DNA from: an uncultured Nitrososphaeraceae archaeon
Lineage (GTDB): Archaea; Thermoproteota; Nitrososphaeria; Nitrososphaerales; Nitrososphaeraceae
Assembly: GCA_963825865.1 (NCBI GenBank)
Contig: CAWGVG010000006.1
Location: 25,001-89,000, forward strand
Length of the DNA: 64,000 nucleotides
Reading direction: 5' to 3'
Part shown: piece by piece, positions 18,989-47,414 of the stretch
How the letters are laid out: each line of letters starts with the position of its first letter
How positions within the stretch are numbered: position 1 is the first letter of the stretch
Program-made: the position numbers and the translations under genes
Notes under the pieces: model-generated
Told to the model about the DNA's origin: nothing
Seen by the model: only the letters and a program-made list of their open reading frames with translations
Databases searched by the model: none

Positions 18989-19387
18989 CTATACAATATT
19001 AGCAGTAGTAGGCAATGGCAATTGTTTTCCAATATACTTTTTCCTTAATTTCTTAGAATTGCAATCCCAGATATATGCATAATAATATTTGTGTGTATTA
19101 TGTCTGCAATCTTTACAACACTTTACCTTTTCATATCTTATTGTGCAATTCTGCGGTAAATTCAGTTTCTCTTTGACCTTTTCTTCCTGTTCATATATTC
19201 TTTCTAATTCAAAATACTCTGAAGATAGGTAACTCGCTGATTCAAGTTTGTTTCTGTATTCCTTATCACTATAAAATTTTTCGAGGTTATCTGAATCGTG
19301 TAATAACTTCTTTAGCATATATCTTGGATCTGATAGCCCTGCTCTCTCTTGCAATTTTGCTAGACGTGTATTAAAATCCTTGTACAT
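18989..19387 (-). CDS. Protein with C-terminal DUF6788-like basic Zn motif
   Basis: VKCCKDC...HKYYYAY...KKLRKKYIGK. Confidence 0.65.
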   Translation of the reverse strand: MYKDFNTRLAKLQERAGLSDPRYMLKKLLHDSDNLEKFYSDKEYRNKLESASYLSSEYFELERIYEQEEKVKEKLNLPQNCTIRYEKVKCCKDCRHNTHKYYYAYIWDCNSKKLRKKYIGKQLPLPTTANIV

Positions 19388-19415
19388 TTCTATTGTTGCA
19401 GTTATTGTATGTACC

Positions 19416-19442
19416 TACTTACACACTGATAAATTTATTGCA
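19416..19442 (-). promoter_or_regulatory. 27-bp conserved upstream motif, copy 2
   Basis: rc TGCAATAAATTTATCAGTGTGTAAGTA, 25/27 identical to 5012-5038. Confidence 0.6.
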
Positions 19443-19588
19443 GTAATATAATTAGTTTGAAATTCTTGTCGACAGGAGTTAGATATATGCGTTGAGAGCA
19501 TATATATTATAACCTAATAAATAAATGGCGTTCTGAAGGAATAATGGGATGAAGTTTAAAAAATAAGAGTGGGATCGGTAGGCTATGG

Positions 19589-19864
19589 TTACCTTTCTGT
19601 GTTTGTAATAGTACATGTTAGGTGTTGGCCTGCAGCTATGGTATCTTCACAATCACTACTGAAGGAAACATCAAAAAATGGTGGCTCATTAAATCTCTCT
19701 TCAAATGAGAAGTCATCCCCTGGCTGCAGTGTAAAAAGGACACCATTTCCAACAGCAGACTGACATGTGAAAGTTTGAGGGTCTTGGGAGCGGACAAGTA
19801 AAGATATTTGACAGCCATTTACGACGAGAGAGCAACTAACTAACAAAAGTATAGCTACCGTCAC
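19589..19864 (-). pseudogene. Fragment of a secreted Ig/prealbumin-like domain protein
   Basis: SFSSDCEDTIAAGQHLTCTITNT tail. Confidence 0.5.
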
Positions 19865-20388
19865 TTTTGTATAGTAGGTTAACCTTCATATTGTGCTCAT
19901 TATATGATGAAAAGACTCGCCAATTAGGTGTGTAATTTTTATCTTTGAGTATTGGAAAACGTTCTTCATTATCATAGTAATCTAATTCTTCTTTGGTCCA
20001 ATTTATCCAATATACAGGCGCTGTAGCATTACTTGGGTGTTTTTGCAAGTATTCAATATCTTTTCTTTCAAGTGCTTCATCCCACTTGCGGTCGTATTCT
20101 TCAACCCGTGCACAACGCATATCTTGAAACTTTTCTTCTAGTTCAAAATCTCTTAACTCGATATTTCCTAATCCACTAATTACAGGACTTGACCAAGCGT
20201 TATATCTCCGTTCATCTGGAATAAACCAGACTATTTCCTTCGTTTTCCTTGATAACGGCGTTAATCATATCCCAGTTGCTAGGACCAGCTTTAGAATAGT
20301 CGTCCCATTTAGATACAGAAGGAGAAGACCCACTTAATAGATTCTCAAGTCTTTTTGAAAGATTGTCTAGGAGTTTATCTGTCTTCAT
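19836..20388 (-). pseudogene. Paralog of 5556-6143, frameshifted
   Basis: MKTDKLLDNLSKRLENLLSGSSPSVSKWD; TKEELDY vs TQEELDW. Confidence 0.65.
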
Positions 20389-20391
20389 GGT

Positions 20392-21909
20392 CTATCGAGA
20401 TATTTGATTTGTTAACTGCTGATGTGACTGTCTTTGTTGCTGCAACTGCATCTGATTTTCGACCTCTGTTAGTTTCTCTTCTAAACTTTGCACATACATA
20501 ATTGACGGACCTTCTGATAATAGTTTGAACTGTGCTTCATTGCATTCTTTAGCCAATTTGAGCGCCGCTAATCTTTGGAAATAGCTTACTTGCTGTGCTC
20601 GTCGTCGGTAGACTCATAAATATTCCAACACTCCTTTAACACTTCTCTTATGCCGTCAATACAACTCTTATACATGAAAGGAAGCGTTTCTTTAGCCAGA
20701 TCATTTAAAAAATTCTGAGATTGTGATGTTAAATGCTGAATATCTCGGCTTATAGTCGCTGGTGTAGTGTTTAACTCTTTCGCAATTTCATAACCTTTCA
20801 TTCCTCTAGTTAAAAGAGTCCATATCTTTTGCCTTCGATCTTGGATTACTAACTGTTGTATTACAAACATAGGTAACAATATAGCTTACAGACATAGGTA
20901 ACACTTCTGCTAGGAAGTGGAAATCTCTATAGAAATTAGAACAAAATTCAATCTCATTCATGAACATGAATGGACTGGTAATAGTATTAGCGATATTTGC
21001 AATAAATACGAAATATCTAGGAAGACATATTACAAGTGGAAAAATAGATACATAGAGCACGGAATAGACGGGTTGAAAGACCTATCTAGAATGCCTCATA
21101 GCATCAAAACCAAAGTATCTAAAGAAATAGAAGAAACAATACTTGATTTAAGATTAAAGACCTTTGGTTATAAGTAGAATCAGGTTCAGATTAAAAAGAC
21201 TTGGAGTATCATTGAGCAGTAGAACCATATACAAGACATTGAAAAAACATACTCTCAACGTTCTAAACTGTAAGGTAAAGAATAATAGAAAGTATAAGCG
21301 ATTTGCAATGAAACATCCAAATGACATGCTTCAAATGGATATACTTGGACCATTCTACTTACACTGTTCATAGCACAAGAAATTACATGATAAGTTGTAT
21401 AGATGACTGTTCAAGAAAAGTTGCTAGCAAGTGGTCTGAAAGAAAGAGGAGCATTGATGTTTTGAATGTACTAGAGGAGTGGATTATGGATAACGGAAAG
21501 CCCAGGAAAGTTATGCATGACAACGGTAAGCAGTTTACATCTAAACTATTCAAACACTTTCTATATAAGAATAACATAAAGGATAAACCAATTCCAAATT
21601 CATATCCACAGTTACAAGGAAAGATAGAAGCATATAACAAGATTGTAAAGAATGAGTTCTTGACAGTTGAAGAAATAACAAGTATTGATGATGGAAAACT
21701 AAGGTATGATATGTTTGTCAAAGCATATAATGAAACTAGGGAACATGGTGGAATAAATGGTCTTACTCCTTCTGAAAGGTTTGTAAAAAGGTTAATTAAA
21801 TCTAAGACATATACAAAAAGGAAGCAAGAAAGTGTAACCTATGTAGGTAATCAAAATTGTTACCCATCTGTGTAAGTACAACAACTAACTTGTTATTATT
21901 TGCGCCCAT
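20392..21909 (-). pseudogene. HTH protein (near-identical to 5066-5534) interrupted by IS481
   Basis: rc of 20490-20853 and 21884-21996 matches 4979-5450. Confidence 0.85.
20854..21883 (+). mobile_element. IS481-family element, copy 2
   Basis: Near-identical to 12827-13854; perfect 6-bp TSD ACTAAC (20848-53 and 21884-89); two frameshifts. Confidence 0.95.
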
Positions 21910-22348
21910 TTAGATATTACAGACATTACGTATATTCACTCACAGACTGATAAATTTATTGCAATTCTTAACACCCAATTCTTGCGCTATCCTCAGATTC
22001 AGTCATTGATTGAGATAGTAAAGCATGGGACTTTGACTTGCGCTCTTTATGTCATGGTGATTTTTATATCCTCGACAGGCTGAAGTACACCGGTTCTATA
22101 GCCGCTTTAGGAAATCGTTATCTTATATCTCACAAGCGTTTGCATACAGACTGAATACTGGAACATGCCAAGATCTGATAATCATATAAGATCACTACTC
22201 CAATATATTATCATGGTGAAGGAAATGGAACTATATCAATTATTGGAGACAGCAACGAAACTGGTAATGTCACCGAATTCGGAGTTGCAAACTTCACAAG
22301 GAAGAAACGAATAAGTTTGGCATATCTTTAGTAGTAATACACTGGAGA

Positions 22349-23074
22349 CTATGGGTATAGTATCCGTAACAATCTTTTATCTTCTTTTGAAAGTTTACTA
22401 TTCCTACCTCCTATTTCCCTATGGTTAAGTGTATATTCTCCAGGAATTGGAAAAAGCATTACAGATTCAGGATCAAATTCATACTTGTTTGTAATTGTTC
22501 TACTATATCTTTCAAATATCTTTCGCTCTACCTCTTGCCTACTCCAATTATATGGAGGACCCATGAAATACTTGTAAACTGCATCTTTATCCCAAGGAAT
22601 ATCTGCAGCAGGATTCTGATATTCGTGAATAAGACCTATAGCATGGCCAAAAATATGTAAGACAGTTTTTGAATACTCTTCTGCTGGTGTCTCGGGGGCG
22701 AGCCAACCAAAATTTATCGTTGGTTCATTTTGAGGTATGTCAAGAGCATCTTTACCAATGTAAGACCAAGAACCTTTATCGCCATTCCACCCAAAACCAA
22801 TGCGAATCTCTGAATGTTTTTCATCATAATGAAATTTAAACTTTAGATTAGCATATCTTACCAATTCGTCTGCTATTTCCTGTACCTTTTTTTGTACCAG
22901 GACATCTCCATTCAAAAAACGTATATTTAGAACCTGGCCGCTTTTCCACCATCTTCCTGTAATGACGGCTATGGGAAAAGCAGCTGGTTCAGAGGAGCCA
23001 AATCTGGCTAAAGCATATGGAGAATGTCCTAGTATATCTTTATCAACACAAATCCTAAACACATTCCCTGTCAT
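22349..23074 (-). CDS. Astacin/M12A-like zinc metalloprotease homolog lacking the catalytic Glu
   Basis: GSWSYIG, TINFGW, TVLHIFGHAIGLIHE, FDPESVMLFP, LSKEDK. Confidence 0.85.
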   Translation of the reverse strand: MTGNVFRICVDKDILGHSPYALARFGSSEPAAFPIAVITGRWWKSGQVLNIRFLNGDVLVQKKVQEIADELVRYANLKFKFHYDEKHSEIRIGFGWNGDKGSWSYIGKDALDIPQNEPTINFGWLAPETPAEEYSKTVLHIFGHAIGLIHEYQNPAADIPWDKDAVYKYFMGPPYNWSRQEVERKIFERYSRTITNKYEFDPESVMLFPIPGEYTLNHREIGGRNSKLSKEDKRLLRILYP

Positions 23075-23114
23075 TACTTTAATTTTTCTTTTGCACCATT
23101 ATTATGTATTATCT

Positions 23115-24171
23115 TTAACGAGTCATACGTCGTAATCGTGCTACAAAAAGTGTAAAAGTTAGATAATCTGCAAGCAGTGTAACATATTCCTTTGAATAAG
23201 GAAACCTTTCCATATACGCACGTTTTTCAAATGGTGCATCAAAATAGAGGTTTTTGAATTTGCTGAACTCCTCATCGCAATTCTGATACTCCATGAATTG
23301 CTTAGAATCAATTTCTATAGCAGGGTTATTTTGAAACCACTTCATTACAATATTGATTTGATTATGTAATTCTTTACTCTCACTCTCATTTAGAGAAGGC
23401 AATATTTCATTACGTTCTCTCTCTAAAACAGAGAATCTTTTGATCCATTCCCTCGTTATATCTCGCCATTTCTCAAAGCGTGAATTTATATACTCTCTTT
23501 CGCTAACTGAAAGCCCACTTTCTTCCAATCTTATTACAGACTCTAAGATTTCGATGCCATAGTAATGTCCATAGGTTCCTAGAACACGATGAATAATCGT
23601 GAGGGCATCCTGTAATTTTGAAATCTGTCCAGCATCATCATTCTCATGGATATAATTACCAACAGTTTGTAGCAAAATATAGCATATTATCGAAATAAAA
23701 TAGCATGTCTATGTCTTCTGATGTAATATTGCTAAATCTTGATTTCCAAGAATTAGTTAGATCGGCTATCCTACTTTTACTATCCTCTAATCTTTTAAGT
23801 GTGTCATTAATATTGTTATTTCTCTTTCTAAAAAATATTACCTCATTGATCAAACTATAAAACTCATTCCACATTACTGAGGATTCTTTTATTGATTCTA
23901 ACTGTCTCTCTTTTCGATCTTCTTCTCTTTTTTCAATAATTTTAAAACGTCTTTCTAGTAGGAACAAAAATATAGGAAAAAGGAGACCGGCTGTTAATCC
24001 TTTGAATATATCCGATTCAAAGTATTCCCATACTTGTGTTATAGGCGGTATAGAAGGGTGAGCTTGTTGATAGACAATAAACAATAAGGAGTTCATGGCC
24101 ACAATCAAAACTAAAGGTAAGTAAATCCATAAAATAACAGCAGATGATCGTGAAAGAGTTAACAGAACCAA
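23115..24171 (-). CDS. Membrane-anchored hypothetical protein (two overlapping ORFs, possibly one frameshifted gene)
   Basis: 23656-24171 has 2 TM helices; overlaps 23115-23675 by 20 nt. Confidence 0.55.
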
Positions 24172-24832
24172 CTAGAACAATCATTCTTTCATCAAGGCAT
24201 TATTTATCTTTGATTAAGTTATCACATATTGATAAGTATAAGATATGATGACCTATTACAAAAATGGAATGTAATGTATACGTGTCAAGATTAAACAGAG
24301 GTCTAAACGTAATTGGATCGTGGACCTCCTCAAAAATTATATCTTCATCTTCTTTAATTGTTTCCGGTGTTGTCGTGTTACTATCGATATTAGTATTATT
24401 ATGACAAGCTAAAAATTTTGCTATCATTCAATGTTAAAAAATAATGGAAGAGGTGATGGTTGATGCCCTGGACCGCTACCTCGATTTAGTTTAGCAGGGA
24501 TGGCCGTTGAAAGAGCATTGCTCCACATGCTTATCGTGTTCACTTACTGTCGCATGTTGTTCGTTAAACTGGAAGGTAATTGTGTTACCTTTACCCCCCC
24601 CTGAAGGCAAATGCTGGTAGAGAAGGGGTATGCGATTATACTAGATTCTAGCATGGTTAGGAATCATGATTCCAAAGCACACCAAATTCAAAGAAAACAT
24701 GACCCTCCCCTACTTCCAAATTTTCGTAAGCAAGAATATTACAAAAAGAGGTTACAAAATAGCGATTCCTATAAATGAAATCTACCCTATTTCATTCATT
24801 CATTCATTAATAATTAATTAATGAATTCTATT

Positions 24833-25345
24833 CTATTCTATTCTATTCGTAGCAAGACCAGTAGAATATGGCTCTTCCTTAGTATTGGTAGTCTTATGGA
24901 CTGCTCCTGTTCTTAGGTTTGATTCTTTACGTCTACGGTCAAAATACAACCTCCTCGCAAACTGTTGCAATTGAATCGCATATTGCTCGATTCTAGTGAT
25001 ATCATTGATATTCTGACATCTCTTATCATCTGTCATATACTCATACAGTTTATCAAATGGTGCTAACAATTCATCCAAAGTTTCTACTTGGGTAGCAGCA
25101 GTAATGTCATTATTATTGCTATTGCTGTGATATTGTATATTAATCGGATTAATAGGGTTATCTATATCTTCATTTCTTTGAACATACTCTTTTACCAAAT
25201 TGACAACCAATTGGCTAAAGCTGGTAGATATGCCTTCTTGTTTCTTTGCTATTTGCTCAGCCTTGATTAAGGTTTCTTTCTCAGATATTGGGCAGCTAAA
25301 TGACTTTGGAAAATGTAGATTGTCGGTAGTCCGTCCACCTGTCAT
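24833..25345 (-). CDS. Protein with N-terminal RHH-like motif, coupled to the topoisomerase gene
   Basis: KSFSCP...AEQIAKK...SFSQLVVNLVKEYV; 4-nt overlap. Confidence 0.6.
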   Translation of the reverse strand: MTGGRTTDNLHFPKSFSCPISEKETLIKAEQIAKKQEGISTSFSQLVVNLVKEYVQRNEDIDNPINPINIQYHSNSNNNDITAATQVETLDELLAPFDKLYEYMTDDKRCQNINDITRIEQYAIQLQQFARRLYFDRRRKESNLRTGAVHKTTNTKEEPYSTGLATNRIE

Positions 25346-26409
25346 TTCTTATATGGGCCACCACGACTGTTGTCTTTGCTGTCTTTTACATCATCATCGT
25401 AAATCTCTTTCTTAACCATATCTTCAAGCTTTGCGCCAATATCTTTCAGGTGCGGATCGTTTTCTACAATCTTCCCAAGTCTATTAAGAATCTCTTTTGT
25501 CTTATCTGCGACATTGATAAAGCCTTTGACATTTTCAAGTTCAGACTTTATCTTTCGTTGCTCTTCAGCCATGAGTGAAGCGACATGCCTGTCAATGTAA
25601 CTATTAAAGGTCCGTATCGCATTGGGATGGTATAATGATAAATCTGGCGAGGATGATATGACACGATTATAATTCCTTTTAGGAAATAATTTAACCAGTT
25701 TATGCATTATATATTCCCATAGCCTTTCGCTGCCAACTGCTGCAAGGACGGCATCTATCTCTACTCTGCTATGTTCTAGAAATTCGATGTCGATATCATT
25801 AAACCTTGAATCGTCTCCATACTCCACTAATTTTCTAACAGGATTTATCTCCTGTGGGAGTGGATGATAAGATACTGCTATTTGTTTATCGTATTTAGAT
25901 AAACCGAAATACTCTAGCATTTCGTCATCAACTCCTAGCCTCGGTATCACTTCTGGAACTTCTGAAGCTATTTTTATTCCACTTGCATCATAATCAGTGA
26001 AGATTGCAACGTGTGCACCTGACTCATTTGATGCTTCAATCAAGTCTTTACCATATTCTGTCAAATGGCCTATTGTGTTAACCAATGCTACGCCATATTT
26101 ATCAGCGTAATCAGTAAGCACTTCAACTATATCCAATTTTTCGATAAAGATAACATCAGTTCCATCTGATGCAAGTGCATTTACGTTATCAAAACTAACA
26201 CTAGTCCATATACCATTATAATACATTGCAGCCCTTGGCGATGCTATTATTCCAAGTGATTCACGTGCTACGCCTAGTTCTTTGCATATGACATTGATTA
26301 ACCTTGTAACATATTTTCTAGTCACCTTAATGCCATACTTCTCCATTATAGGAATAAACAGATACCAGACTGTTGACTGAGTCCATCTGTCTATAGGAGT
26401 AGCGCTCAT
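25342..26409 (-). CDS. Topo VI-A/Spo11-like subunit (WHD + Toprim)
   Basis: WTQSTVWY (candidate catalytic Tyr), RESLGIIA, IFIEK, GVALV..GH, FTDYDASG, RLG, RVEIDAV. Confidence 0.85.
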   Translation of the reverse strand: MSATPIDRWTQSTVWYLFIPIMEKYGIKVTRKYVTRLINVICKELGVARESLGIIASPRAAMYYNGIWTSVSFDNVNALASDGTDVIFIEKLDIVEVLTDYADKYGVALVNTIGHLTEYGKDLIEASNESGAHVAIFTDYDASGIKIASEVPEVIPRLGVDDEMLEYFGLSKYDKQIAVSYHPLPQEINPVRKLVEYGDDSRFNDIDIEFLEHSRVEIDAVLAAVGSERLWEYIMHKLVKLFPKRNYNRVISSSPDLSLYHPNAIRTFNSYIDRHVASLMAEEQRKIKSELENVKGFINVADKTKEILNRLGKIVENDPHLKDIGAKLEDMVKKEIYDDDVKDSKDNSRGGPYKK

Positions 26410-39140: not shown

Positions 39141-39287
39141 ATAGATTTAAGATTAAATGATTAGATAATAATACTTTCCATGAGAAATTATTATTTGCAC
39201 ATAATACTAAAGGAAATGAGTTTTCGAGAATAAAGAATAAAAAGATGAAGAGAGGATGCAAAGCGCTACTTTTGCTCTTTTTTTATT

Positions 39288-39383
39288 TTACTTAGGCTTG
39301 TCCGCATTTTTAGCAACTTTTTGTCGTGTCTTCTTGCTTGCGGAAGCAAGTCCTCTTTTACTACTGGTAATTTTTTTAGCCAT
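39288..39383 (-). CDS. Very small basic protein (KGG/stress-like)
   Basis: MAKKITSSKRGLASASKKTRQKVAKNADKPK. Confidence 0.45.
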   Translation of the reverse strand: MAKKITSSKRGLASASKKTRQKVAKNADKPK

Positions 39384-39908
39384 CTAGCAAACTTAATTTG
39401 CTTTATTATATATTAATATCTATATATAATATTTGTACATTCTTTGATAAGTTATCCTTGCTATAATTTTAATTAAATTCTTTTTGTACACTTTCTCTAT
39501 TTTTGTAATAAGAGCATTCTCTTAAAACATCATAACCAATTCTAACCTCTGCTTGTATTGTTATTTTCTGTCTCTAAAGAATACATAAATAAACACAAAA
39601 GCATTTAACTGAGAAGGAATAATCCATTGAGCATATGCGTTATTTGCTTTTGTCAGTAGCACTTGCAACCCACAAAAACAGTAACAGATAATCGCATGAT
39701 TCCAAACAATAATTTATTATTGTTCATTTAGATATATAGTACAGTAGATTATAAAAATAGAACAATCCTAATTATTTATCGTATGGATAATAAATCAAAG
39801 TCTTTTACGATTAGAATTAGATAATCTAATTTCTCGTTGTCAGAACAGCCTATTCTGTATTTCTAGATTGATTACAGAATTTACCTACAATCTTTTGAAG
39901 ATATGGTA

Positions 39909-40025
39909 GGTTTGTTTATCTCCAAAAGTATTATCGATGCTCATGGTAGCAAGGTTTGGGCTAAAAATAATGCAGATGGGAAAGGAGATACGTTTTACTT
40001 TAGTCTGCCAATAAGCAAGAGATAT
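39909..40025 (+). pseudogene. Histidine kinase HATPase C-terminal fragment
   Basis: GLFISKSIIDAHGSKVWAKNNADGKGDTFYFSLP. Confidence 0.8.
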
Positions 40026-40494
40026 TTAATACAAAAAAATCGAAAGCCTAACTTTTTTCTTTTAGAATTCTGTTTCTGAAAGATGAGTGACAAAAATGAG
40101 TCAAATTTGTTCAGAATCCCGCTAACCACGTCAGATATATACGTCTTAAATTAGCTTCCAAGACATAGATGTAATAATCTCGCATATTGCTCCTTAGACA
40201 TGCTCTAAGTTATCAATAAAAAACCAAATTATATGTCAATATTAATATACAATTATCTTATTGTCGTTTTAAGTTCCAATATAGAATTTCCTTTCGTAGC
40301 TGATTTTGAAATGATATGTGCAAATCTCGAATGCGAGACTTCTGATTTGCAGATTGATTATATATAGCTTAATTTCGAACTATGCTAAGATTGCTTGTTG
40401 ATGTTGTTAGATCAATAGAATCAAAGTCCGCAGTATCTACAATGGCAGCGTAATCAATCGCTTTATTTATCTTATAGTGTAGCGATTATGGCAT

Positions 40495-40731
40495 ATGGAT
40501 GAGAAGCCACAACAAGGAATAGCAGATACGTGGCGTAAAAAAATTGAAATGATAGGCATAAACATAAAAGATTTAGAGTTGGATGACGAAACAGAAGCAC
40601 GCCTTAAATTAAAAACAAACCTTATTAATCAACATTTAATAAATGAATTAGATAAAATCGGTCTACAGCTAATAAATATTAGAGCAACATTTAATGGTAA
40701 ACTTGTAGTACTTTTAGAGCCGAAAGTTTAA
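40495..40731 (+). CDS. Hypothetical protein
   Basis: 78-aa ORF. Confidence 0.55.
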   Translation: MDEKPQQGIADTWRKKIEMIGINIKDLELDDETEARLKLKTNLINQHLINELDKIGLQLINIRATFNGKLVVLLEPKV

Positions 40732-41226
40732 CAAGATAAAGTACTATGAAGTATTGACAGAAAAAAGAAAAGATCTCATGTGTATAGATCTAAAACAGCC
40801 ATGAAACATCTAGTTGTGTGTTTTTCTTAATGTCTTTATTTATCTAAACTATTTTATCTTAATTGCGGATTTAGACTCAACTTTATATAATTTTGTCTTA
40901 GTCTGGGAGGCCGTGCTGGATTGTTATATATATTCACAGAATTTAGCATATACAAGTATATACATAAGACGTTGTTTGAAATATACATCAGTCCAAGTAT
41001 CAGAATGGCCTAGACGATAGATTGATTTGGGTCGGATAATATCGTTCGGATCGTTCGAAATAAGAGAAGAACCTATCAAGCCTTGTGGTATATCTATCTC
41101 TGGTTACTGGAGAATTCATCGCGTACTTAAATATTGAATAGGGATCTAGGCATTCTATCAATTCTTTTTGTTTTCACCATATTGTTTGTAAAACCCACTA
41201 AAAAGGAGTGATATCACAATGGGCCC

Positions 41227-41259
41227 AAGGGAGTTCGAAGCCTCGGTTCAAACTCCTTT
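41227..41259. other. Candidate integrase att/core site (13-7-13 inverted repeat)
   Basis: AAGGGAGTTCGAA-GCCTCGG-TTCAAACTCCTTT, 53 nt upstream of the integrase. Confidence 0.45.
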
Positions 41260-41312
41260 AAGTTACCTTAAAATAGTAACACCACAAGTACTGAACACCA
41301 ACAAAGTATCAA

Positions 41313-42582
41313 ATGAGAGATCTATACAACAGACAAAAGACATTAGCAAACTGGATTAAGAGAGTAAATGAAGATCTTATAGATGCCGACAAAGCAGATG
41401 TTTTAAAACTCATAGAACATATGCAGGATAGAGAAAAAAGCATTCTTTGGATAGTTCGGTGTATAGTCAACCTTCTTTCCATAAGAAGACAGCTTGGGAA
41501 ATCATTTAGAGATGCTACTAAAGATGATATAAGGTTATTTTTGAAATGGATGGAACAGAAAGGCTACAAGGCATCTACTAACGAAAAGTTCAGACAAGTT
41601 TTGAAACTATTCTATAAGATCATATATGGCAATAATGAATATTATCCAGAGCAGGTAAAGTGGTTCTCCTCAAAACTTGGAAAAGAAAAGACTGGTAAGG
41701 AAACCAGTATGGATATGGCAGAATATTTGGAGGAAAACGAGATTCAAAGAATAGTAGAAGTGGCTTGTACAACTCAAAAGAAGGCTTTTCTTGCGTGTAT
41801 GTATGAGAGTGGAGCAAGGCCAGAGGAATTCTTGAGACTTACTAATGCAGATATAAGGATTGATTCTAATGGCGCAGTTCTTATGCTCAGAGGAAAAACA
41901 GGAGAGAGAAGAGTGAGAATAATATCTTTTGCAAAACTGCTGCAACAATGGATAGAAGTACATCCACTCAGATCCCAGAACTATTATCCGATTTGGATAA
42001 GTGAAGCTACCAACTTCAAAAATAATGCACTAGGACTCCGGGGTGCTGAAAAGGTAATTGAAGAGGTCTTACCAGGAGCAGGACTAACGAATAAACATGC
42101 ACGTTTGTATATATTGAGGCACTCTAGAGCTACACACCTTGCTAAACACCTTACAGAAGCTCAAATGTGTGTATTTTTTGGCTGGGTACAAGGAACACAG
42201 GTAGTTAGGCGTTACATACATCTATCAGGTAAGGATGTAGACAATGTCCTCCTGGCAATAAATGAAGGAGACAAGGCAAGAGTAACAGAAGAGTATCAAT
42301 TAAAACCCATAAAGTGCACTAGATGTTCTGAAGCTATTAGTCCAGGAATCGAACTTTTGCTCTAGGTGTTCATTACCAGTAAATTTAAGTAAAGAACTCA
42401 CAAGAGAAATGGAACTTGAGAAAGAGAACAAAGAGCTTAAAGAAAAGTATAACCATGATATGAAAATACTTCGTGATGAGATGAATCAGAAATTTAGTCA
42501 TATTATGACATTGATACAGCAAAACCCAATGTTGGCACATGTCAAGCCAGAAGTACTTACAAAGAAAATAGATAGCAAATGA
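41313..42582 (+). CDS. Tyrosine integrase (frameshift near 42350 in the Zn ribbon)
   Basis: YESGARPEE, GKTG, YILRHSRAT, FGW, RRYIH; CTRC / FCSRC tail ends TGA 42580-82. Confidence 0.9.
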
Positions 42583-42593
42583 AATGGTTGTAC

Positions 42594-43655
42594 TTAAAAT
42601 TTGTTAGACGGTTCTAGTGCATCTTCTAGGTCAAAGGAAATTCCACTCTTTTTTAGCTTTTCTTTATATGCGGCTAAAGATGACCTCCAATCATTCTTTA
42701 ACATTTCTTTTAGTTCACGTCTTTCTGTTATTTGTTCTTCTGACATGTATAGATATGGTTCTTGAAAGAGAAAATCATCTGCTAATCCCGTATATGGATA
42801 TATCTTGAAACTAATTTTCCATGCATCATTAAGCAAGCCATGGATATCATTTCGCAGATTAATTTTCTTGGACTGACGATGCAAGGACATTAGAAAAACA
42901 GGATGTAAGAGAAAGCAATTCCGCACAAAGTTTCCAATTACGGGACTGTATAAAGTTCCGGCTGTTGCTTGTTCAAATGGTGGTAGGCCGATCTTGATTT
43001 TAAAGAGCTCAGACATTTTAAAAAGCAAGTCTGTCATCTTGGAAATAACAATATTTAACAATTTTCTAGCATACGCTTTGTCACCAATGCTAAATGGCCA
43101 GTCCAGTAAGGCGTATACTATGTAAGAATTTAAAACGTGTCTGTATATTTCAATTAGGTACAGTAGAAATCCTTGGGCATCAATGTCAGAATTATTCTCA
43201 ACTGAACGTTCTGCCTTTGAATCTTTTAGCTTAATTAATAATAATAAAAAGGAATTTTGGAAATCATCAAGTTCCAATATTTTCATTGCTATGATATTAT
43301 CAGTATTTATAAAAAGATGATGCATATGGCTGTTATTTTCATCAGGGCTACTGATTATAATTCCATAATCAATCAATTTATCCATTAGATTCCAAGCAGG
43401 TCTTCTAGAGAGTGAACCTATACTTTCAAAATAATCTACTAATTTTTGCTTGATACAACCAGGGTTCTTTCTTATGTATTCAATGGCTAATAATTCATTT
43501 TTTGTGAAATTATTGTCTTCATCCTCTCTTATGCTTTCGTTGTATTCTTTAATTTTTGACCTTTTTGCATACTCATCTAGAGTTTGAGCATGCTGTATTA
43601 TCTTCTCAATTGCAGTTTTATCAACAATAATTTTTTTGTCCCATGTCGTATACAG
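42594..43655 (-). CDS. Large wHTH regulator
   Basis: Frame is open upstream of 43385 to a CTG at 43655; IEYIRKNPGCIKQ...SRRPAWNLMDKLIDYGII. Confidence 0.75.
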   Translation of the reverse strand: MYTTWDKKIIVDKTAIEKIIQHAQTLDEYAKRSKIKEYNESIREDEDNNFTKNELLAIEYIRKNPGCIKQKLVDYFESIGSLSRRPAWNLMDKLIDYGIIISSPDENNSHMHHLFINTDNIIAMKILELDDFQNSFLLLLIKLKDSKAERSVENNSDIDAQGFLLYLIEIYRHVLNSYIVYALLDWPFSIGDKAYARKLLNIVISKMTDLLFKMSELFKIKIGLPPFEQATAGTLYSPVIGNFVRNCFLLHPVFLMSLHRQSKKINLRNDIHGLLNDAWKISFKIYPYTGLADDFLFQEPYLYMSEEQITERRELKEMLKNDWRSSLAAYKEKLKKSGISFDLEDALEPSNKF

Positions 43656-43711
43656 TAGTATATGGAAATATGTTTCGTAGTATATAACGCTATGTAATTC
43701 ATTATTTCTAT

Positions 43712-43852
43712 ATGTCTAAAACAACAATTCTTGTCGAAAGCAAGACTAGAGAGAATTTAAAACAACTAGGTACAAAGGGCCAGACATACGACGACCTTAT
43801 TAATGAATTGATAGAAATGAAAAGAAATTATCAGGACCCACTCGAATCGTAG
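43712..43852 (+). CDS. RHH DNA-binding protein
   Basis: MSKTTILVESKTRENLKQLGTKGQTYDDLINELI. Confidence 0.8.
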   Translation: MSKTTILVESKTRENLKQLGTKGQTYDDLINELIEMKRNYQDPLES

Positions 43853-43904
43853 AATTGAGACCCTGCAATCAAGTGAATCCTAAAGCACATAGGAGTTGAG
43901 CCCC

Positions 43905-44066
43905 ATGAGTGAAAGTACAATATCTTCAGAAGTTAATAAAAATATATGTGAAGCATTAGCCTGCTTTGCAGAGGCTACTACTAAGATTGAGTTAAAACTA
44001 GGCCGGAAGGGAACAATCACCCTAGATCTCTGTAAGGACTGTGTGAAGCGGTTTCAGCATAACTGA
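43905..44066 (+). CDS. Small zinc-finger protein
   Basis: CEALAC...AT.......LDLCKDC. Confidence 0.7.
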   Translation: MSESTISSEVNKNICEALACFAEATTKIELKLGRKGTITLDLCKDCVKRFQHN

Positions 44067-44079
44067 GGTTAATGAAAAA

Positions 44080-45408
44080 ATGATTTCCAGCAACCTAATA
44101 AAAAATGCACCAATAAGCTCTAGCCAAAATGCACCATTAGATCTATTGGGACAATGTAGCGGCAGCGGCAACAGGGTGAAAAGGCGTTACACCAGAGCAC
44201 ATCATATCCAGAATCTAGCTATCAGCCATTATAACAAGAATGGCAAACCCATAACCTATGCAGATTTACTATCAAGCGGCATTGCACATAGTAAGAAACA
44301 AGCTCAAGATACACTCAAACGTAGTCTTCATAGAGATATTGTTTTTACTGTAGAGAAACACAAACCGCAGAAATACTATCCTACATGCCTTAAGTCTGAA
44401 ATTTTGAAAAGGAAACTAGCAAAGAATGCACCAGTAAAGGTCACAGGGGTAGGGTTCTCTGACGAACCTCATTTTTCGGTTAAAACTAATAATGATAGGA
44501 CAACAACTAGCAACGGATGCAATGAATCCATAGTAGCCAATCAGTCATTGGAAGGTTATGTCCTGCCATTGCTGCCTTCGGCGCCATTGCATATACACAA
44601 AATCCAATTCAAGCTAAAGATTATACCAGACTGCTATGCTGAACTTGGTAATCTTTCCATAGATAGTAGGAACAAGGGAAAAGAGCATGTTGAAGTTATA
44701 GGCAAAGTCAGAGTCTCTTATCGCTTCTACCCAAATGGCACAATTCTAGTTTTTACCGAGAGTAGCAACAATCCATTCAAGCTTGAAGATGAAATAGACC
44801 GTACCAGCATTATTGCATTCTTTGGTCAAGTACGTGATAGACTTGTTACTTTTCTTGCAGATACACATGAAAGGATAATACCGGGAATATTAGAATGGGA
44901 GCTAACGCAGTGTGATATAAATAAGGATATCACGATCGGTGAAGCTCTTCAGTATACAGGGCTAAAGGTGCAGGTTAAGCATTTTGACCGCCTGTTTAGA
45001 GTCTACATAAAATCCATTGGTAAGGACACAGCTTGCAGGGTAGAAGAATCGCTCAATCCAATGAAGCCTGCTGTTCAAGTAATAAGTGAAATTTTTGCTA
45101 ATCCAAATGATAGAGAACATCTGCAGCGGCAGCAGTCTTCTTCTGATGGTAGTAGTAGAAGGAAAATCGATGAAATTCATGATATGGTGAAGGGCCTTCT
45201 TAAGCTGCATAAGCTCGAATCCAGCCATTGGAGAAGAACTACTAGAAGGAGGGGGGTCGTAATTTTATGTCAGAAAACAGCCATGCCTCCAAATCGTAAT
45301 CAAAATATAATCCCCATCTTCCTTTCTCATAGAACAAGAGCAAGAACAAGTTTTTTCCTCAGAGAAGGCTGTAATGGATTTTATCACTTTAAGAGGGATT
45401 CAGACTAG
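44080..45408 (+). CDS. wHTH + Rep_trans-like replication initiator/relaxase (putative)
   Basis: N-terminal wHTH-like region; LTQCDINKD, LFRVYIK, CRVEE resemble Rep_trans motifs; 3' end probably extended by a frameshift. Confidence 0.55.
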   Translation: MISSNLIKNAPISSSQNAPLDLLGQCSGSGNRVKRRYTRAHHIQNLAISHYNKNGKPITYADLLSSGIAHSKKQAQDTLKRSLHRDIVFTVEKHKPQKYYPTCLKSEILKRKLAKNAPVKVTGVGFSDEPHFSVKTNNDRTTTSNGCNESIVANQSLEGYVLPLLPSAPLHIHKIQFKLKIIPDCYAELGNLSIDSRNKGKEHVEVIGKVRVSYRFYPNGTILVFTESSNNPFKLEDEIDRTSIIAFFGQVRDRLVTFLADTHERIIPGILEWELTQCDINKDITIGEALQYTGLKVQVKHFDRLFRVYIKSIGKDTACRVEESLNPMKPAVQVISEIFANPNDREHLQRQQSSSDGSSRRKIDEIHDMVKGLLKLHKLESSHWRRTTRRRGVVILCQKTAMPPNRNQNIIPIFLSHRTRARTSFFLREGCNGFYHFKRDSD

Positions 45409-47414
45409 AACAGGAGTAGATGAGAAGCATTTACCTTTATTTGTATTAAAGGAAATGATGGACAATGCTTTAGACCATGTGGAGAAATCAGGCGGTGGCA
45501 ATACTACTACCACTCAGCAGCAACCTAAAGTCACCGTAGCCATAACTCTTGAAGAAAATTCTCTACTCCATATCAGAGTATCTAATTCTAACCATTCAAA
45601 CAAAGGCGTATTTACAGAAGGTAATGTAATGAAAATATTTAGCTATACTAGTTCTATGAAGGAGCAAGCGGAACCAATTCAAAATCACAAGGGGTGCGCT
45701 TGGAGATGCCTTCAAGGAATTATTATCTATACCTTATGCACTTGCGATAGAAGGGCTTGGATTTGACAAATGGGAAAAACCATTAATCATTAGGGATAGT
45801 GCTAGTAGAAAAGAATTCATCGTCAAGCTTAAGGTCGATAAAGCAAACCAGGGGATTGAACCCATATTTGCTGTTGAGGATTTGTCATCCGATAACAAGT
45901 GGTATTATCTATCATCCTTATATAAAACAGACAAGATACACGAAATACAAGTTGATCTTTTCTTGCCTTTTGATTCGCGTGGCGCCGCCGAATCTATGAT
46001 TAGAAAATTTAAAGACCTACTAAATCAGTATTTGTATAATACACATGTTGTCTTTAATTTCAGGATTGATGATCCCGCTAATCGAAACATCTGGATGAAC
46101 CTTGAAACACAGCAGGCACAGAAAATTGTTACCAATACCAAGAAAAATAATAATAAACTTCAACAGCAAGAACGACAACAGCAGCAACTTACGAGCATTC
46201 ACTACTATACATTTACTGAATTTGAAAATCTACTATATGGCCTTGAAGACAATAACGCATATGCGTATGATAAACTATATCGAGTATTCAGAGAATGCAC
46301 AAACCTAAAGAAGACAAACGAATTAAAGTCCCTTACAGTTGGAGAATTAAAGAATGCAGATAAAGATACAAAATTAAGATTGTTTAGAAGTTTAAGAAAT
46401 GCCCTTCCACCTAAGGAGAAATTAGACCTACCGCTCGGAGTTAGCAGTAAATCCAAAGATAGGAAAGCAGCAATCAGAAAACGAATTGAACATATGGGAT
46501 ACTCAGTTATTAATTTCAACTACAAATGTACAGAAGGACATGCAAAGTATACTTCTCAAGACCTCAAGGGTGACAAGACATCAGTAGCGAGAGCAATTCC
46601 TGCTACTACTGCCAATGAAAATTTTGATAATACAGTGCAATTTCCATTCTTGTTTGAAGCAGCAATCGCTACAGTAGTTGGAAACTTCAACAGAAAGGTG
46701 TATCAGCTAATCAACAACTCACCTAGATACAATACCACAGTATTCAAAGTAGATTTGGGAGAGAATATGTTTAGCTGGCTTAACAAACAGGGCAGCATTC
46801 AATATGGATATTCAATCGAAAATATTCTTGACAAATACGGGTATACGGGAAATCACGATCCTAAGAAACCAAGATCTAGGAAACCTAACAGCATAATTAT
46901 GGTTAATCTGATTTCTCCAAAACTAGAGTATAAAGACTATGGCAAGACTTCTATTAATTTGGAGCCTTTCAGAGACGCAATAGGCGAGACACTATACAAG
47001 GTATGTAGTGGTGGTGGTGGCCGCTCTGGCGACGACAGGCCATCAAAGGTTTCTGTTGTATTAGAAATCATGACTGAAAGGAAACAGAAATGGTATTCAC
47101 TAGACACAGCATCGGAAAGGCAAAAATATCTATGGACCCAAAGTGATGGATTTTACGCCAGTCGCAAGCGATTGATCGAATATGGTTATACAAACGATGA
47201 AATCGATAGAGAATACATAACGGGATTGATCAAAGATATCTGCGAGAACAAATTAGATGTAAAGTGTGAAGACATAGGAATTATCGCAGCAGATAGGGCG
47301 CAGCTTTACTTTAAAGGGAAGTGGATGGATGTTGGCCTTAAAGAAATCAGAGAATTAAGTCTCTATGGAATCGACCTGCTAATTATAGAAAAAGAAGGTA
47401 TTGCAGAACAACTA
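45374..47414 (+). pseudogene. Fused Topo VI B-A (Topo VIII-like) topoisomerase, N-terminal part, cut by IS630
   Basis: LKEMMDNALD (N box), frameshift near 45655, SKRNQFKITRGALGDAFK (G2 box), NLISPKLEYKDYGKTS (transducer), WTQSDGFY, LIIEKEG. Confidence 0.85.

What the first reader, a model, noticed from the sequence alone, without database searches (positions are those of the whole stretch)
18989..47414. Family of integrative elements carrying a type IIB (Topo VIII-like) topoisomerase, with satellite-like layout and interchangeable replicons
Seen: two back-to-back elements share gene order. Element 1 is int 41313 >< wHTH 43655 | RHH 43712, Zn 43905, Rep 44080, topo 45374, and after the permuted junction Cys protein 4708, HTH 5066, ORF 5556. 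Element 2, on the minus strand, is int 39140 >< wHTH 36630 | RHH 36555, Cys protein, prim-pol/helicase, SSB-like, topo 27440, RHH, HTH 21909, ORF 20388. The wHTH, RHH, topo, HTH and last ORF are recognisable paralogs but strongly diverged apart from the HTH. Known: int / divergent regulators / primase-helicase / terS plus defence cargo is the layout of bacterial phage satellites (SaPI/PICI), and Topo VIII is a mobile-element type IIB enzyme. Inference: a capsid-less, conjugation-less archaeal element family, possibly virus satellites, that encodes its own topoisomerase or Toprim nuclease.
Basis: partly seen in the sequence, partly recalled or inferred. Interest (0 to 1): 0.9.

Follow-up and report, generated by a model that had tools for sequence, protein, structure and literature searches.

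The report
Decayed archaeal plasmid-like elements with Topo VIII
Two broken, integrase-bearing mobile elements in a soil ammonia-oxidising archaeon each carry a plasmid-type (Topo VIII-like) DNA topoisomerase, a gene family common in this archaeal family but not reported there in the papers I could search.

Summary
The observation largely holds. Window 41313-47414 plus 3959-6143 (element 1) and 18989-39140 (element 2) share five homologous genes: a tyrosine integrase, a divergent winged-helix-like gene, a small RHH gene, a type IIB topoisomerase and a downstream HTH gene, plus 29 residues of the last ORF.

The 'topo' call is right:
- Models of the element 2 proteins match only Topo VI-A/Spo11 and Topo VI-B.
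- The family profile hits the characterised Topo VIII of plasmid pPPM1a (51 bits), against 25 bits for phage Mini-A and 16.5 bits for the host's Topo VI-A.

Both elements are decayed:
- Element 1's fused B-A gene has two frameshifts and an IS insertion.
- Element 2 has lost the ATPase domain.
- Regulator, helicase and HTH genes are also broken.

The 'permuted junction' is an IS630-like cointegrate. Two direct IS copies bracket 3959-47414 and split both the topoisomerase gene and another IS. This implies a former circle of about 44.6 kb.

The topoisomerase is patchy (46 of 201 genomes of the family, 2 of 300 elsewhere in the phylum). It lies within 6 kb of an integrase in 13 of 19 loci with enough flank, and different replication-type genes precede it.

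The satellite/TerS idea found no support. Best reading: cryptic integrative plasmid-like elements.

The parts
41062..41236 (.). Repeated segment of about 150-175 nt at the int1-proximal edge of element 1; candidate boundary, not proven
   Evidence: 93-94% identical copies on contigs C56 and C43, and an 87% inverted copy at window 413-486. Contigs from other metagenomes stop or start matching at 41165-41204 (table 7).
41313..42365 (+). Element 1 tyrosine integrase (350 aa)
   Evidence: Pfam Phage_integrase 4.9e-14. NCBIfam XerA-type 5.5e-20, below cut-off. 70% identical to the 405-aa integrase of the G051 element.
42594..43700 (-). Element 1 divergent 'wHTH-like' gene. The frame is open to 43700, but the first canonical start is at 43385.
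   Evidence: Homologous to element 2's 36630-37598 and to the 310-aa G051 protein. No Pfam family.
43712..43852 (+). Element 1 small RHH-like protein (46 aa)
   Evidence: 61% identity over 33 aa to element 2's RHH. 57% to the 66-aa G051 protein. Translation.
43896..44066 (+). Small Cys-rich ORF (56 aa), function unknown
   Evidence: No similarity to the element 2 Cys ORF.
44080..45408 (+). 'Rep442': conserved element protein directly upstream of the topoisomerase. A replication role is inferred from position only.
   Evidence: No Pfam, PHROG, NCBIfam or PDB hit. 46% identical to the G051 337-aa protein in the same position. Distant homologue of family F35 (hhalign 79%, E 1.6e-5).
45374..47414 (+). 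Element 1 Topo VIII-like gene, 5' part (pseudogene): GHKL region 45374-45661, frameshift near 45660, then H2TH/transducer and the start of the 5Y-CAP/Toprim part
   Evidence: tblastn with N-termini of 16 long homologues. GHKL HMM E 1.8e-30 and 2.8e-22 in two frames. G2 box of GxxGxA type. One contig of run X1 lacks one base at 45660.
47415..48576 (+). IS-A copy 2 (IS630-like, two transposase frames), flanked by TA
   Evidence: 99.4% identical to copy 1. At least 12 further full-length copies at 98-99.6% in the genome. The IS630-like name comes from my reading of the flanking transposase frame and the TA duplication; it was not tested against a family library.
2798..3958 (+). IS-A copy 1, flanked by TA
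2470..2797 (+). 5' part of another IS630-like element (IS-X). Its 3' part lies at 48577-49377.
   Evidence: Both parts are adjacent in an intact copy at C23:13441-14569 (97.8-99% identity) and in copies on C52, C26, C9 and C32.
48577..49377 (+). 3' part of IS-X
3959..4715 (+). Element 1 Topo VIII-like gene, 3' part (Toprim and C-terminal region), with a further frameshift between 4272 and 4419
4708..5007 (+). Cys-rich ORF (99 aa), no relatives in the genome
5066..5534 (+). Element 1 HTH gene (family F2), frameshift near 5160
   Evidence: Pfam HTH_11 5.8e-6 on the element 2 copy.
5556..6143 (+). 'Last ORF' (195 aa), unknown function
   Evidence: 68% identical copy on C27. Follows the HTH gene also in metagenome locus L083.
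37644..39140 (-). Element 2 tyrosine integrase (498 aa) with a C-terminal zinc-ribbon-like region
   Evidence: Pfam Phage_integrase 1.9e-4 and DZR 0.0022, both below cut-off. Paralogues of 72-78% identity on C46, C27 and C21.
36630..37598 (+). Element 2 wHTH-like gene, one in-frame stop after codon 131
36388..36576 (-). Element 2 RHH-like protein (62 aa)
   Evidence: Pfam DUF7557 1.1e-4, below cut-off. Paralogy.
32958..34681 (-). Broken replication-type module: the last 94 codons of a gene that is 329 aa on contig C7, then a P-loop (SF3/D5-like, lead only) gene of 350 aa split by a frameshift into 217-aa and 276-aa frames
27441..28420 (.). About 1 kb without a minus-strand ORF of 50 aa or more, where the GHKL domain would be; no trace of it
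   Evidence: tblastn found none. GHKL HMM has no hit better than E 1.3.
26406..27440 (-). Element 2 Topo VIII B' subunit (P0001, 344 aa): H2TH and transducer only
   Evidence: AF2 pLDDT 82.5. Foldseek ranks 1-13 shown are all Topo VI-B; 10 matches at E <= 0.001. Aligns to residues ~250-550 of fused homologues.
25342..26409 (-). Element 2 Topo VIII A subunit (P0002, 355 aa): 5Y-CAP, Toprim and a C-terminal helical region; catalytic residues intact
   Evidence: AF2 pLDDT 91.2. Top 8 Foldseek hits are all Topo VI-A/Spo11. Motifs. Pfam DUF2399 8.5e-7.
20855..21883 (+). IS-B (rve-type transposase) inserted into the 5' end of element 2's HTH gene, with a short target duplication
20458..20854 (-). 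Element 2 HTH gene (family F2), body; its first codons lie beyond IS-B near 21884-21950
18989..20388 (-). Tail ORFs of element 2 (58, 94, 91 and 132 aa). The 132-aa family is multicopy in the genome.
   Evidence: A 22-nt upstream motif is shared with the HTH genes.

Best explanation
The region holds the remains of two related, small (about 8 and 20 kb) integrative plasmid-like elements of a Nitrososphaeraceae archaeon. They are the 'cryptic integrated element' kind.

Proposed working plan of an intact element:
- A tyrosine recombinase inserts and excises the circle.
- A divergently transcribed pair (a large winged-helix-like protein and a small RHH or AbrB-type protein) sets the switch or copy control.
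- A replication-type gene, which differs between lineages, starts replication.
- The gene right behind it encodes a Topo VIII-type type IIB topoisomerase: a GHKL ATPase, H2TH, transducer, 5Y-CAP and Toprim, either fused or split into B and A.
- As a dimer this enzyme would cut both strands through the conserved Tyr and the Mg-binding E/DxD, pass a second duplex, and so relax or unlink the element's daughter circles.

Shown here: the folds, the motifs, homology to a characterised Topo VIII, the link with integrases, the decay of both copies and the IS-bracketed structure.

Inferred: the activity, the role in replication, the regulator roles and the excision.

In this genome both copies are defective. 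The whole stretch 3959-47414 sits between two direct IS copies in a way that implies it was once a circle of about 44.6 kb joined to the surrounding DNA through the IS.
For: FOLD
- P0002 model, pLDDT 91.2. Its 8 Foldseek matches at E <= 0.001 are all Topo VI-A or Spo11.
- P0001 model, pLDDT 82.5. Its 10 matches at E <= 0.001, plus 2zbk_B at 0.0025, are all Topo VI-B.

MOTIFS (39-sequence alignment)
- R-A-x-[LM]-Y, with Tyr in 32 of 39.
- E90 in 39 of 39; D139 in 39 of 39; D141 in 38 of 39; G144 in 39 of 39.
- R/K-[IV]-E-[IL]-D-[AS]-[VI] box, with E217 in 39 of 39.
- GHKL N box and a GxxGxA G2 box.

KINSHIP TO TOPO VIII
- Family profile against the pPPM1a Topo VIII: 51.3 bits, E 7e-15, profile positions 41-331.
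- hhalign 97.5%, E 5.8e-12, with Tyr, E, DxDxxG and the RVEL box in register.
- Phage NP1 Mini-A: 24.9 bits, Toprim only.
- Host Topo VI-A: 16.5 bits and hhalign 35.7%.

MOBILE-ELEMENT NATURE
- Patchy distribution: 46 of 201 genomes of the family; 2 of 300 other genomes of the phylum. Often multicopy and broken.
- An integrase within 6 kb in 13 of 19 loci that have 8 kb or more of flank.
- G051 repeats the element 1 order with open frames throughout, the B part read in two frames.

CIRCLE
- IS-X halves and topoisomerase halves are swapped across two direct IS-A copies, with TA at all four junctions.
Against: - No att direct repeats were found for either element, so integration by the integrases is not shown.
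- No circular contig among 67 metagenome contigs.
- No enzymatic or expression data.
- A canonical G1 (DxGxG) box is not evident in the GHKL consensus, so ATPase activity is uncertain.
- Tyr63 is replaced in 7 of 39 family members.
- Of 26 loci with 2.5 kb or more upstream of the topoisomerase, only 7 have one of the recognised replication-type families there, and 19 have none.
- The function of 'Rep442' is unknown.
- The genome is a 62-contig assembly at 82% completeness. The IS-bracketed order could be a path an assembler chose through a repeat.
- One weak PHROG hit to a minor tail protein (ORF 23115-23675, E 0.0015).
Confidence: 0.72

Rival explanations
1. Virus satellites: capsid-less elements that use a helper virus for packaging and spread, with the HTH protein acting as a small terminase.
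For: - The layout (integrase, divergent regulators, replication gene) resembles bacterial phage satellites; this resemblance is recalled knowledge.
- No capsid, portal, large-terminase or conjugation family was hit among 29 element ORFs tested with Pfam, nor among the 10 larger ones also run through PHROGs.
- One of four HTH homologues tested gave a faint terminase-small-subunit hit (E 0.0047, residues 17-59 only).
Against: - The HTH matches are generic: HTH_11, HTH_38, Trp repressor, and transposase or DNA-binding PHROGs that score better than the terminase one.
- No relative of the topoisomerase in IMG/VR by two pattern scans, and none in 50,697 phage records by tblastn.
- Topo VIII is reported from plasmids, not viruses (PMC4117785, PMC7671362).
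- Most ORFs have no match at all, so absence of virion genes is not shown.
Confidence: 0.08
2. The enzyme is not a strand-passing topoisomerase but a DNA-breaking nuclease, used for element competition, addiction or defence. In element 2 it would be an ATPase-less B'+A pair, as in the meiotic Spo11 core complex.
For: - The G2 box is of the GxxGxA type. The one GxxGxA Topo VIII tested, from A. degensii, linearised plasmids (passages read in PMC7671362 and PMC4117785).
- No canonical G1 box is evident.
- Element 2 keeps open B' and A frames with catalytic residues but has no GHKL.
- Weak JetD/DUF2399 matches.
Against: - The switch-lysine region is conserved in B' (K267 nearly invariant). The N and G2 boxes are also kept, as expected for a working ATP gate.
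- Foldseek's significant hits are only Topo VI/Spo11, with no JetD.
- No SMC-type JetABC family was hit among the ORFs tested.
- Loss of GHKL in element 2 fits the general decay of the region.
Confidence: 0.15
3. The permuted order and the implied circle are an assembly artefact: the assembler took a wrong path through near-identical IS-A copies.
For: - The IS-A copies are 99.4% identical. About 840 nt of the right part is 99-100% identical.
- The genome is a draft of 62 contigs.
- No public run held more than 21% of the sampled words of the stretch, so the junctions could not be checked.
Against: - Even a wrong path implies the same repeat graph: 3959-47414 closes on itself through one IS-A. 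A circular form, free or integrated, follows either way.
- The two copies differ (95% over 2876-3122), and each variant stays with its own left flank.
- At least 14 full-length IS-A copies were resolved in the assembly.
Confidence: 0.15
4. The modules are fragments of larger proviruses or conjugative elements, not a family of small elements.
For: - The region is a graveyard of mobile DNA: three IS families, an integrase fragment at 9523-9689 and a SIR2 gene.
- Published Topo VIII elements are mostly large conjugative plasmids (PMC4117785).
Against: - The G051 locus shows a compact unit of about 8 kb, from integrase to topoisomerase.
- In three loci the integrase lies 78-520 nt from the topoisomerase.
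- No virion or conjugation family was detected in the window's elements or among the 10 neighbour ORFs of other loci tested.
Confidence: 0.07

Closest known systems
DNA topoisomerase VIII (type IIB; e.g. plasmid pPPM1a of Paenibacillus polymyxa M1; Gadelle 2014, Takahashi 2020)
   Same: - B-A domain order in one polypeptide (element 1 and 20 of 256 homologues), or split in two.
- Tyr in an RxxMY-like motif, E and DxDxxG, and an RVEL-type box after the Toprim domain.
- GxxGxA G2 box and a C-terminal extension.
- Borne by integrated mobile elements.
- Profile match 51 bits; hhalign 97.5%.
   Different: - Too far for tblastn against 72,556 plasmid records.
- The box reads RVEIDAV rather than RVELNAM.
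- The Arg three residues after the Tyr, described for Topo VIII, is not there: Gly in 34 of 39.
- No evident DxGxG G1 box.
- The host is a thaumarchaeon and the carriers are small elements next to integrases, not large conjugative plasmids.
- A split at the B/A border is common (72 separate full B subunits among 256 homologues). The published splits lie within the transducer.
Topo VI (cellular type IIB) and Spo11
   Same: Same folds for both subunits. The B/A split of element 2 and of many relatives mirrors Topo VI.
   Different: - The host's own Topo VI-A (contig C14) scores only 16.5 bits with the family profile; hhalign 35.7%.
- The A part here has only about 60 residues before the Tyr.
Mini-A (viral type IIB A-like proteins; e.g. 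Pseudomonas phage NP1)
   Same: Short A-type protein on a mobile element. The box resembles Mini-A's WELDAL in its ELDA part.
   Different: - Mini-A has no B partner. Here a B or B' gene always precedes A in the window, and fused forms exist.
- The profile match to NP1 is 24.9 bits, over the Toprim domain only.
Cryptic integrated elements of Thaumarchaeota (Krupovic 2019, PMC6563490)
   Same: - Integrase plus varied replication genes and no hallmark virus or conjugation genes.
- Size range around 17 kb.
- Short or undetectable att sites.
   Different: That survey mentions only type IA topoisomerases on such elements (one occurrence of 'topoisomerase' in a term search of the main text). It states there is no signature gene for the class. 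Here a type IIB topoisomerase marks one family.
Phage satellites (SaPI/PICI) and Sulfolobus satellite plasmids pSSVx/pSSVi (recalled, not tested)
   Same: Integrase, divergent regulators, a replication gene and small size.
   Different: No packaging or helper-interference gene identified, no helper virus known, and no hit in viral contig collections.

Membership tests
Topo VIII | A moiety with 5Y-CAP (winged helix) plus Toprim fold | tested here: met
   AF2 model pLDDT 91.2. The 8 Foldseek matches at E <= 0.001 are all Topo VI-A/Spo11.
Topo VIII | Catalytic Tyr in RxxY/FY or RxxMY | tested here: met
   P0002 reads R59-A-A-M-Y63. Element 1 reads R-A-Q-L-Y. In the family, Tyr is present in 32 of 39. 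It aligns with the PRGTLY stretch of pPPM1a.
Topo VIII | Mg-binding E and DxDxxG | tested here: met
   E90 39/39, D139 39/39, D141 38/39, G144 39/39.
Topo VIII | RVELNAM-type box after the Toprim domain | tested here: met
   Variant form: R/K-[IV]-E-[IL]-D-[AS]-[VI], with E217 39/39. In register with NRVELNSM of pPPM1a.
Topo VIII | Arg three residues after the Tyr, often followed by Pro | tested here: not met
   Position +3 is Gly in 34 of 39. Arg occurs at +2 in 14 of 39. The pPPM1a enzyme also lacks it in the alignment.
Topo VIII | B moiety (GHKL, H2TH, transducer) N-terminal to A, usually in one polypeptide | tested here: met
   - Element 1: all parts present in order, but as a pseudogene.
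- Element 2: not met for GHKL; B' and A are separate genes.
- Family: 20 N-B-A fusions plus 8 N-A fusions in which the B part went undetected, and 72 separate full B subunits, among 256 homologues, many of them fragments.
Topo VIII | ATP-binding boxes N, G1, G2 and the switch lysine | tested here: inconclusive
   - N box ExxDNxxD and G2 box GxxGxA are present.
- No DxGxG is evident (alignment only).
- K267 in B' is nearly invariant, but its identity with the switch lysine was not checked on a structure.
Topo VIII | Closer to Topo VIII than to Topo VI or Mini-A | tested here: met
   One representative each: 51.3 bits against 24.9 and 16.5; hhalign 97.5% against 35.7%. No full phylogeny was made. 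The published sequence lists are in supplements that were closed.
Topo VIII | Carried by mobile elements | tested here: met
Topo VIII | Topoisomerase activity | not testable with these tools
   No assay possible.
Phage or virus satellite | Packaging or helper-exploitation gene (e.g. TerS) | tested here: not met
   Only generic HTH matches.
Phage or virus satellite | Found in virus particles or viromes | tested here: inconclusive
   No relative in IMG/VR by two pattern scans, or in the phage collection by tblastn. These searches reach only fairly close relatives.
Cryptic integrated element (thaumarchaeal) | Integrase plus flanking att direct repeats | tested here: inconclusive
   Integrases are present. 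No shared words of 12 nt or more in direct orientation between the expected ends, and none for G051.
Cryptic integrated element (thaumarchaeal) | No virus or conjugation hallmark genes | tested here: inconclusive
   None hit among 29 ORFs (Pfam) and 10 ORFs (PHROGs), except one weak minor-tail hit. Most ORFs match nothing.
Wadjet JetD | Toprim C-terminal domain together with JetABC neighbours | tested here: not met
   Weak DUF2399/JetD hits only. The partner is Topo VI-B-like. No SMC-type neighbour hit.

The most novel reading that the evidence does not exclude
The Nitrososphaeraceae enzymes are a large, deep archaeal branch of Topo VIII in which fused, B/A-split and ATPase-less forms interconvert on small self-replicating elements. 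The IS-bracketed 44.6-kb structure would be the footprint of a real episome, which would be a plasmid of an ammonia-oxidising archaeon. Some members may move as virus satellites. If so, this clade could root the type IIB tree and test whether Topo VI/Spo11-type enzymes arose on mobile elements. It could also give a replicon for genetics in these archaea.
Probability: 0.2. Interest if true: 0.8.

Novelty: new member of a known kind. Interest (0 to 1): 0.55.

Why it matters
- Takahashi et al. (PMC7671362, passages read) knew only about four archaeal Topo VIII sequences. They wrote that more are needed to interpret the family's evolution.
- Here the family has 562 cluster representatives at E <= 0.001 in a library of 1.84 billion proteins.
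- It occurs in 46 of 201 sampled genomes of one family of soil ammonia oxidisers. That count includes the unpublished genomes G160 and G034.
- It comes in fused and Topo VI-like split forms. [quoted passage not shown]
- It marks a family among the 'cryptic integrated elements' of Thaumarchaeota. That class was said to lack any signature gene and was proposed as a source of much-needed vectors (PMC6563490, passages read).
- The copies in this window are broken and of little use themselves. Intact relatives exist, for example an uninterrupted 952-aa frame in a 1.8-Mb contig of G077.

Tried and rejected
SEARCHES THAT FOUND NOTHING
- Sequence search of P0001 and P0002 against PDB chains: nothing significant.
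- tblastn of P0002 against plasmids and phages: no match.
I then used the single protein and an 8-row alignment. Neither found a relative.
- att search by shared words: nothing convincing for element 1, element 2 or G051.
- tRNA genes: none in the window. The hairpin-like stretch at 41210-41260 is not a tRNA fragment.
- Circularity of 67 metagenome contigs: none had a terminal overlap of 15 nt or more.
- Rep442 stayed without a known relative: ESM Atlas best score 0.82, no named family; PDB profile search, nothing.
- Helicase profile against PDB: nothing.
- D5-like primase-helicases of other loci have no similarity to the window.
- PADLOC: only the SIR2 gene and weak JetD hits.

PUBLIC RUNS
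- The best holder had 21% of the sampled words, and no RNA holder is listed.
- Only short contig pieces were laid, and none spans an IS junction. The assembled order and expression remain untested.
- Parts without cover say nothing.

NOT DONE
- No complex prediction was run (job not used).
- No tree of type IIB enzymes was built: only one Topo VIII, one Mini-A and one Topo VI-A sequence were at hand, and the papers' supplementary lists were closed.

LITERATURE
- Searches for Topo VIII together with Nitrososphaer*, Thaumarchaeota or 'type IIB' plus 'mobile genetic element' returned only the three Topo VIII papers and reviews.
- None of them, in the passages read, reports a thaumarchaeal Topo VIII.
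- Papers were read as search listings and 'find' passages only, not in full.

Full report
SETTING
The window is positions 25001-89000 of an 89-kb contig (C6) of a 4.98-Mb, 62-contig genome with 82% completeness. Named relatives of its proteins come from Nitrososphaeraceae MAGs. GC content is about 34% and there is no tRNA gene. Coding density is low and insertion sequences are many.

WHAT IS THERE
Element 1 reads rightwards:
- integrase 41313-42365 (Pfam Phage_integrase 4.9e-14);
- an oppositely oriented winged-helix-like gene (frame open over 42594-43700);
- a 46-aa RHH-like gene at 43712;
- a 56-aa Cys-rich ORF;
- 'Rep442' at 44080-45408;
- a long topoisomerase-like frame from 45374.

Element 2 reads leftwards from integrase 37644-39140:
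- a wHTH-like gene at 36630-37598;
- an RHH-like gene at 36388-36576;
- a Cys-rich ORF;
- a broken NTPase module at 32958-34681;
- several ORFs without family;
- two topoisomerase-like ORFs, P0001 (26406-27440) and P0002 (25342-26409);
- five unknown ORFs;
- an HTH gene and small tail ORFs down to 18989.

Paralogy between the elements is real for integrase, wHTH, RHH, topoisomerase and HTH. For the last ORF it holds only over the first 29 residues. The Cys-rich ORFs are not detectably related.

THE TOPOISOMERASE
- Pfam sees only a Toprim-type DUF2399 match in P0002 (8.5e-7).
- Models built on alignments of homologues are confident: pLDDT 91.2 for P0002 and 82.5 for P0001.
- In the PDB, every significant Foldseek match of P0002 is a Topo VI-A or Spo11 chain: 8 of 8 at E <= 0.001.
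- Every significant match of P0001 is a Topo VI-B chain: 10 of 10 at E <= 0.001.
- P0001 aligns with residues ~250-550 of fused homologues of 860-1095 aa. The first ~250 residues of these are a GHKL domain. Single members give weak HATPase_c and Topo-VIb transducer hits. The consensus shows an N box and a GxxGxA G2 box.
- The A part carries R-A-x-[LM]-Y, E, DxDxxG and an R-[IV]-E-[IL]-D-[AS]-[VI] box. These are the residues that Takahashi et al. use to define type IIB enzymes and to tell the subfamilies apart (PMC7671362, passages read).

I compared the family profile with one representative of each known subfamily:

| Comparison | Profile score | hhalign |
|---|---|---|
| Topo VIII of plasmid pPPM1a, biochemically characterised | 51.3 bits, E 7e-15, positions 41-331 | 97.5%, all four motifs in register |
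| Mini-A of phage NP1 | 24.9 bits, Toprim only | not run |
| Host's own Topo VI-A on contig C14 | 16.5 bits | 35.7% |

Differences from published Topo VIII:
- no Arg at +3 after the Tyr;
- no evident DxGxG box;
- frequent splitting exactly at the B/A border;
- sequence distance too great for tblastn against 72,556 plasmids.

STATE OF THE TWO COPIES
Element 1's gene is a full B-A fusion of about 930 codons, but broken three times:
- a frameshift near 45660; one contig of a related sequence in public run X1 lacks one base there;
- an IS insertion after 47414;
- a further frameshift between 4272 and 4419.

In element 2, B' and A are open and keep the catalytic residues. The kilobase upstream of B' has no trace of a GHKL domain. 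The same HMM finds that domain at E 1.7e-103 in the corresponding place of the G051 locus.

Other damage:
- an in-frame stop in element 2's wHTH gene;
- a frameshift in element 1's HTH gene;
- IS-B inserted into element 2's HTH gene with a short target duplication;
- in element 2's replication-type module, a 350-aa NTPase gene is split by a frameshift, and a gene that is 329 aa on contig C7 is reduced to its last 94 codons.

THE PERMUTED JUNCTION
- IS-A is IS630-like and about 1161 nt long, with inverted ends and a TA duplication. It lies at 2798-3958 and at 47415-48576 in direct orientation.
- Left of copy 1 lies the 5' part of another IS (IS-X). Right of copy 2 lies its 3' part. The two parts are adjacent in intact IS-X copies elsewhere, for example C23:13441-14569.
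- Left of copy 2 lies the topoisomerase 5' part, and right of copy 1 its 3' part, in frame.
- The order is therefore X5'-IS-A-[3959..47414]-IS-A-X3'. This is the structure of a cointegrate between the surrounding DNA and a circle made of 3959-47414 plus one IS-A, about 44.6 kb.
- It could arise by recombination between two IS-A copies or by replicative transposition. TA at all four junctions does not tell these apart.
- The copies differ most in their left third (95% over 2876-3122), which fits a crossover in the identical right part.
- An assembler's choice through the repeat cannot be excluded, but the same graph still implies a circular form.
- The bracketed stretch holds both elements, three more IS, an integrase fragment (9523-9689) and a SIR2-type gene. 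No housekeeping gene was seen among the five of its ORFs outside the two elements that I tested.

RELATIVES ELSEWHERE
- The A-part profile finds the gene in 46 of 201 sampled genomes of the same family: 30 of 114 high-quality genomes and 10 of 18 genera. These tallies include the window's genome and the unpublished G160 and G034.
- It is often in several copies, often with stops, and often on short contigs. There are also 18 uninterrupted frames of 800 aa or more, one of them in G034.
- In 300 other genomes of the phylum only 2 have it.
- The window's genome has about a dozen loci, mostly fragments.

I examined 77 loci: 10 genomic neighbourhoods of 22-40 kb and 67 metagenome contigs.
- Of 19 loci with 8 kb or more of flank, 13 have a tyrosine integrase, all within 6 kb. 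They belong to two families. One of them (F5) is recognised only weakly by Pfam (1.6e-5).
- Of 26 loci with 2.5 kb or more upstream, 7 have a recognised replication-type gene directly upstream on the same strand: 3 F35, 3 D5-like primase-helicase (Pfam D5_N and DUF5906 on the G077 member of this family) and 1 Rep442. The other 19 have none of these.
- F35 and Rep442 are probably distant relatives (hhalign 79%, E 1.6e-5).
- A small AbrB-type or RHH gene precedes the topoisomerase in 5 of the 26.
- The G051 locus repeats element 1 gene for gene: integrase (70% identity), divergent wHTH, RHH, a 252-aa ORF, Rep (46%), GHKL, B' and A.

So a family of integrase-bearing elements marked by this topoisomerase, with exchangeable neighbours, is supported. 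A strict common gene order is not.

SATELLITE IDEA
- The HTH family matches only generic HTH models.
- No virion or conjugation family was hit, but most ORFs hit nothing.
- No relative turned up in viral collections.
- The idea is neither supported nor excluded. Known Topo VIII carriers are plasmids.

VERDICT
The finding is real and its central call is correct, but the elements here are wrecks. The layout fits cryptic integrative plasmid-like elements better than satellites. The new points are:
- a large Nitrososphaeraceae branch of Topo VIII on small elements, not found in the literature I could search;
- the IS-mediated cointegrate that explains the permutation.

Noticed in passing
window 2798-3958, 47415-48576, 9945-11097; genome-wide: IS-A (IS630-like) has at least 14 full-length copies at 98-100% identity in the genome, plus diverged or partial ones. 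One copy is nested in another IS630-like element (IS-X). This suggests a recent IS burst.
   Followed up: partly
L121 (G000:C15:121500-129500), ORFs 963-1928, 2284-2949, 3221-4435: Another mobile module in the same genome. A 321-aa Toprim protein is weakly similar to the Topo VIII A profile (23.5 bits; Pfam Toprim 0.0068). It is followed by a Prim-Pol gene (Pfam 1.7e-6) and a homologue of element 2's NTPase. It may be a Mini-A-like relative.
   Followed up: partly
window 19396-19442, 21917-21963, 5012-5058: A 47-nt motif lies upstream of the HTH genes and of the 132-aa tail ORF. Its 22-nt core occurs 8 times in the genome (up to 2 mismatches). The six copies checked (three in the window, plus C5, C27, C45 and C62 copies) lie next to homologues of these two genes. 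It is probably a shared promoter or operator.
   Followed up: partly
window 17518-18621 (-): A SIR2-like protein (Pfam SIR2_2 1.4e-10; PADLOC SIR2 1.1e-20) lies next to the tail of element 2. It is a possible defence cargo and is single-copy in the genome.
   Followed up: partly
window 41062-41236 and 413-486: A segment of about 150 nt just upstream of int1 recurs on contigs C56 and C43 (93-94%) and, inverted, at 413-486 (87%). Contigs of three public runs stop or start matching at 41165-41204. This may be an att region.
   Followed up: partly
window 9523-9689: A fragment of an int1-type integrase (60-90% identity to the G051 integrase over about 50 residues) lies beside the third IS-A copy. 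It is a remnant of a third element.
   Followed up: no
window 49689-50672 (-): A 327-aa protein with a weak Rad51/RadA-type ATPase match (1.7e-5) and faint zinc-ribbon matches at the N-terminus. A homologue lies near the topoisomerase locus of G141 (family F21).
   Followed up: no
G428:C4:8956-10026 (another family of the phylum): The only strong match outside the window's family among 300 genomes: an uninterrupted 382-aa A-type frame, E 1.1e-59.
   Followed up: no
window 23115-23675 (-): A 186-aa ORF downstream of element 2's topoisomerase has a weak PHROG hit to a minor tail protein (E 0.0015, 17.8 bits). This is probably chance.
   Followed up: no
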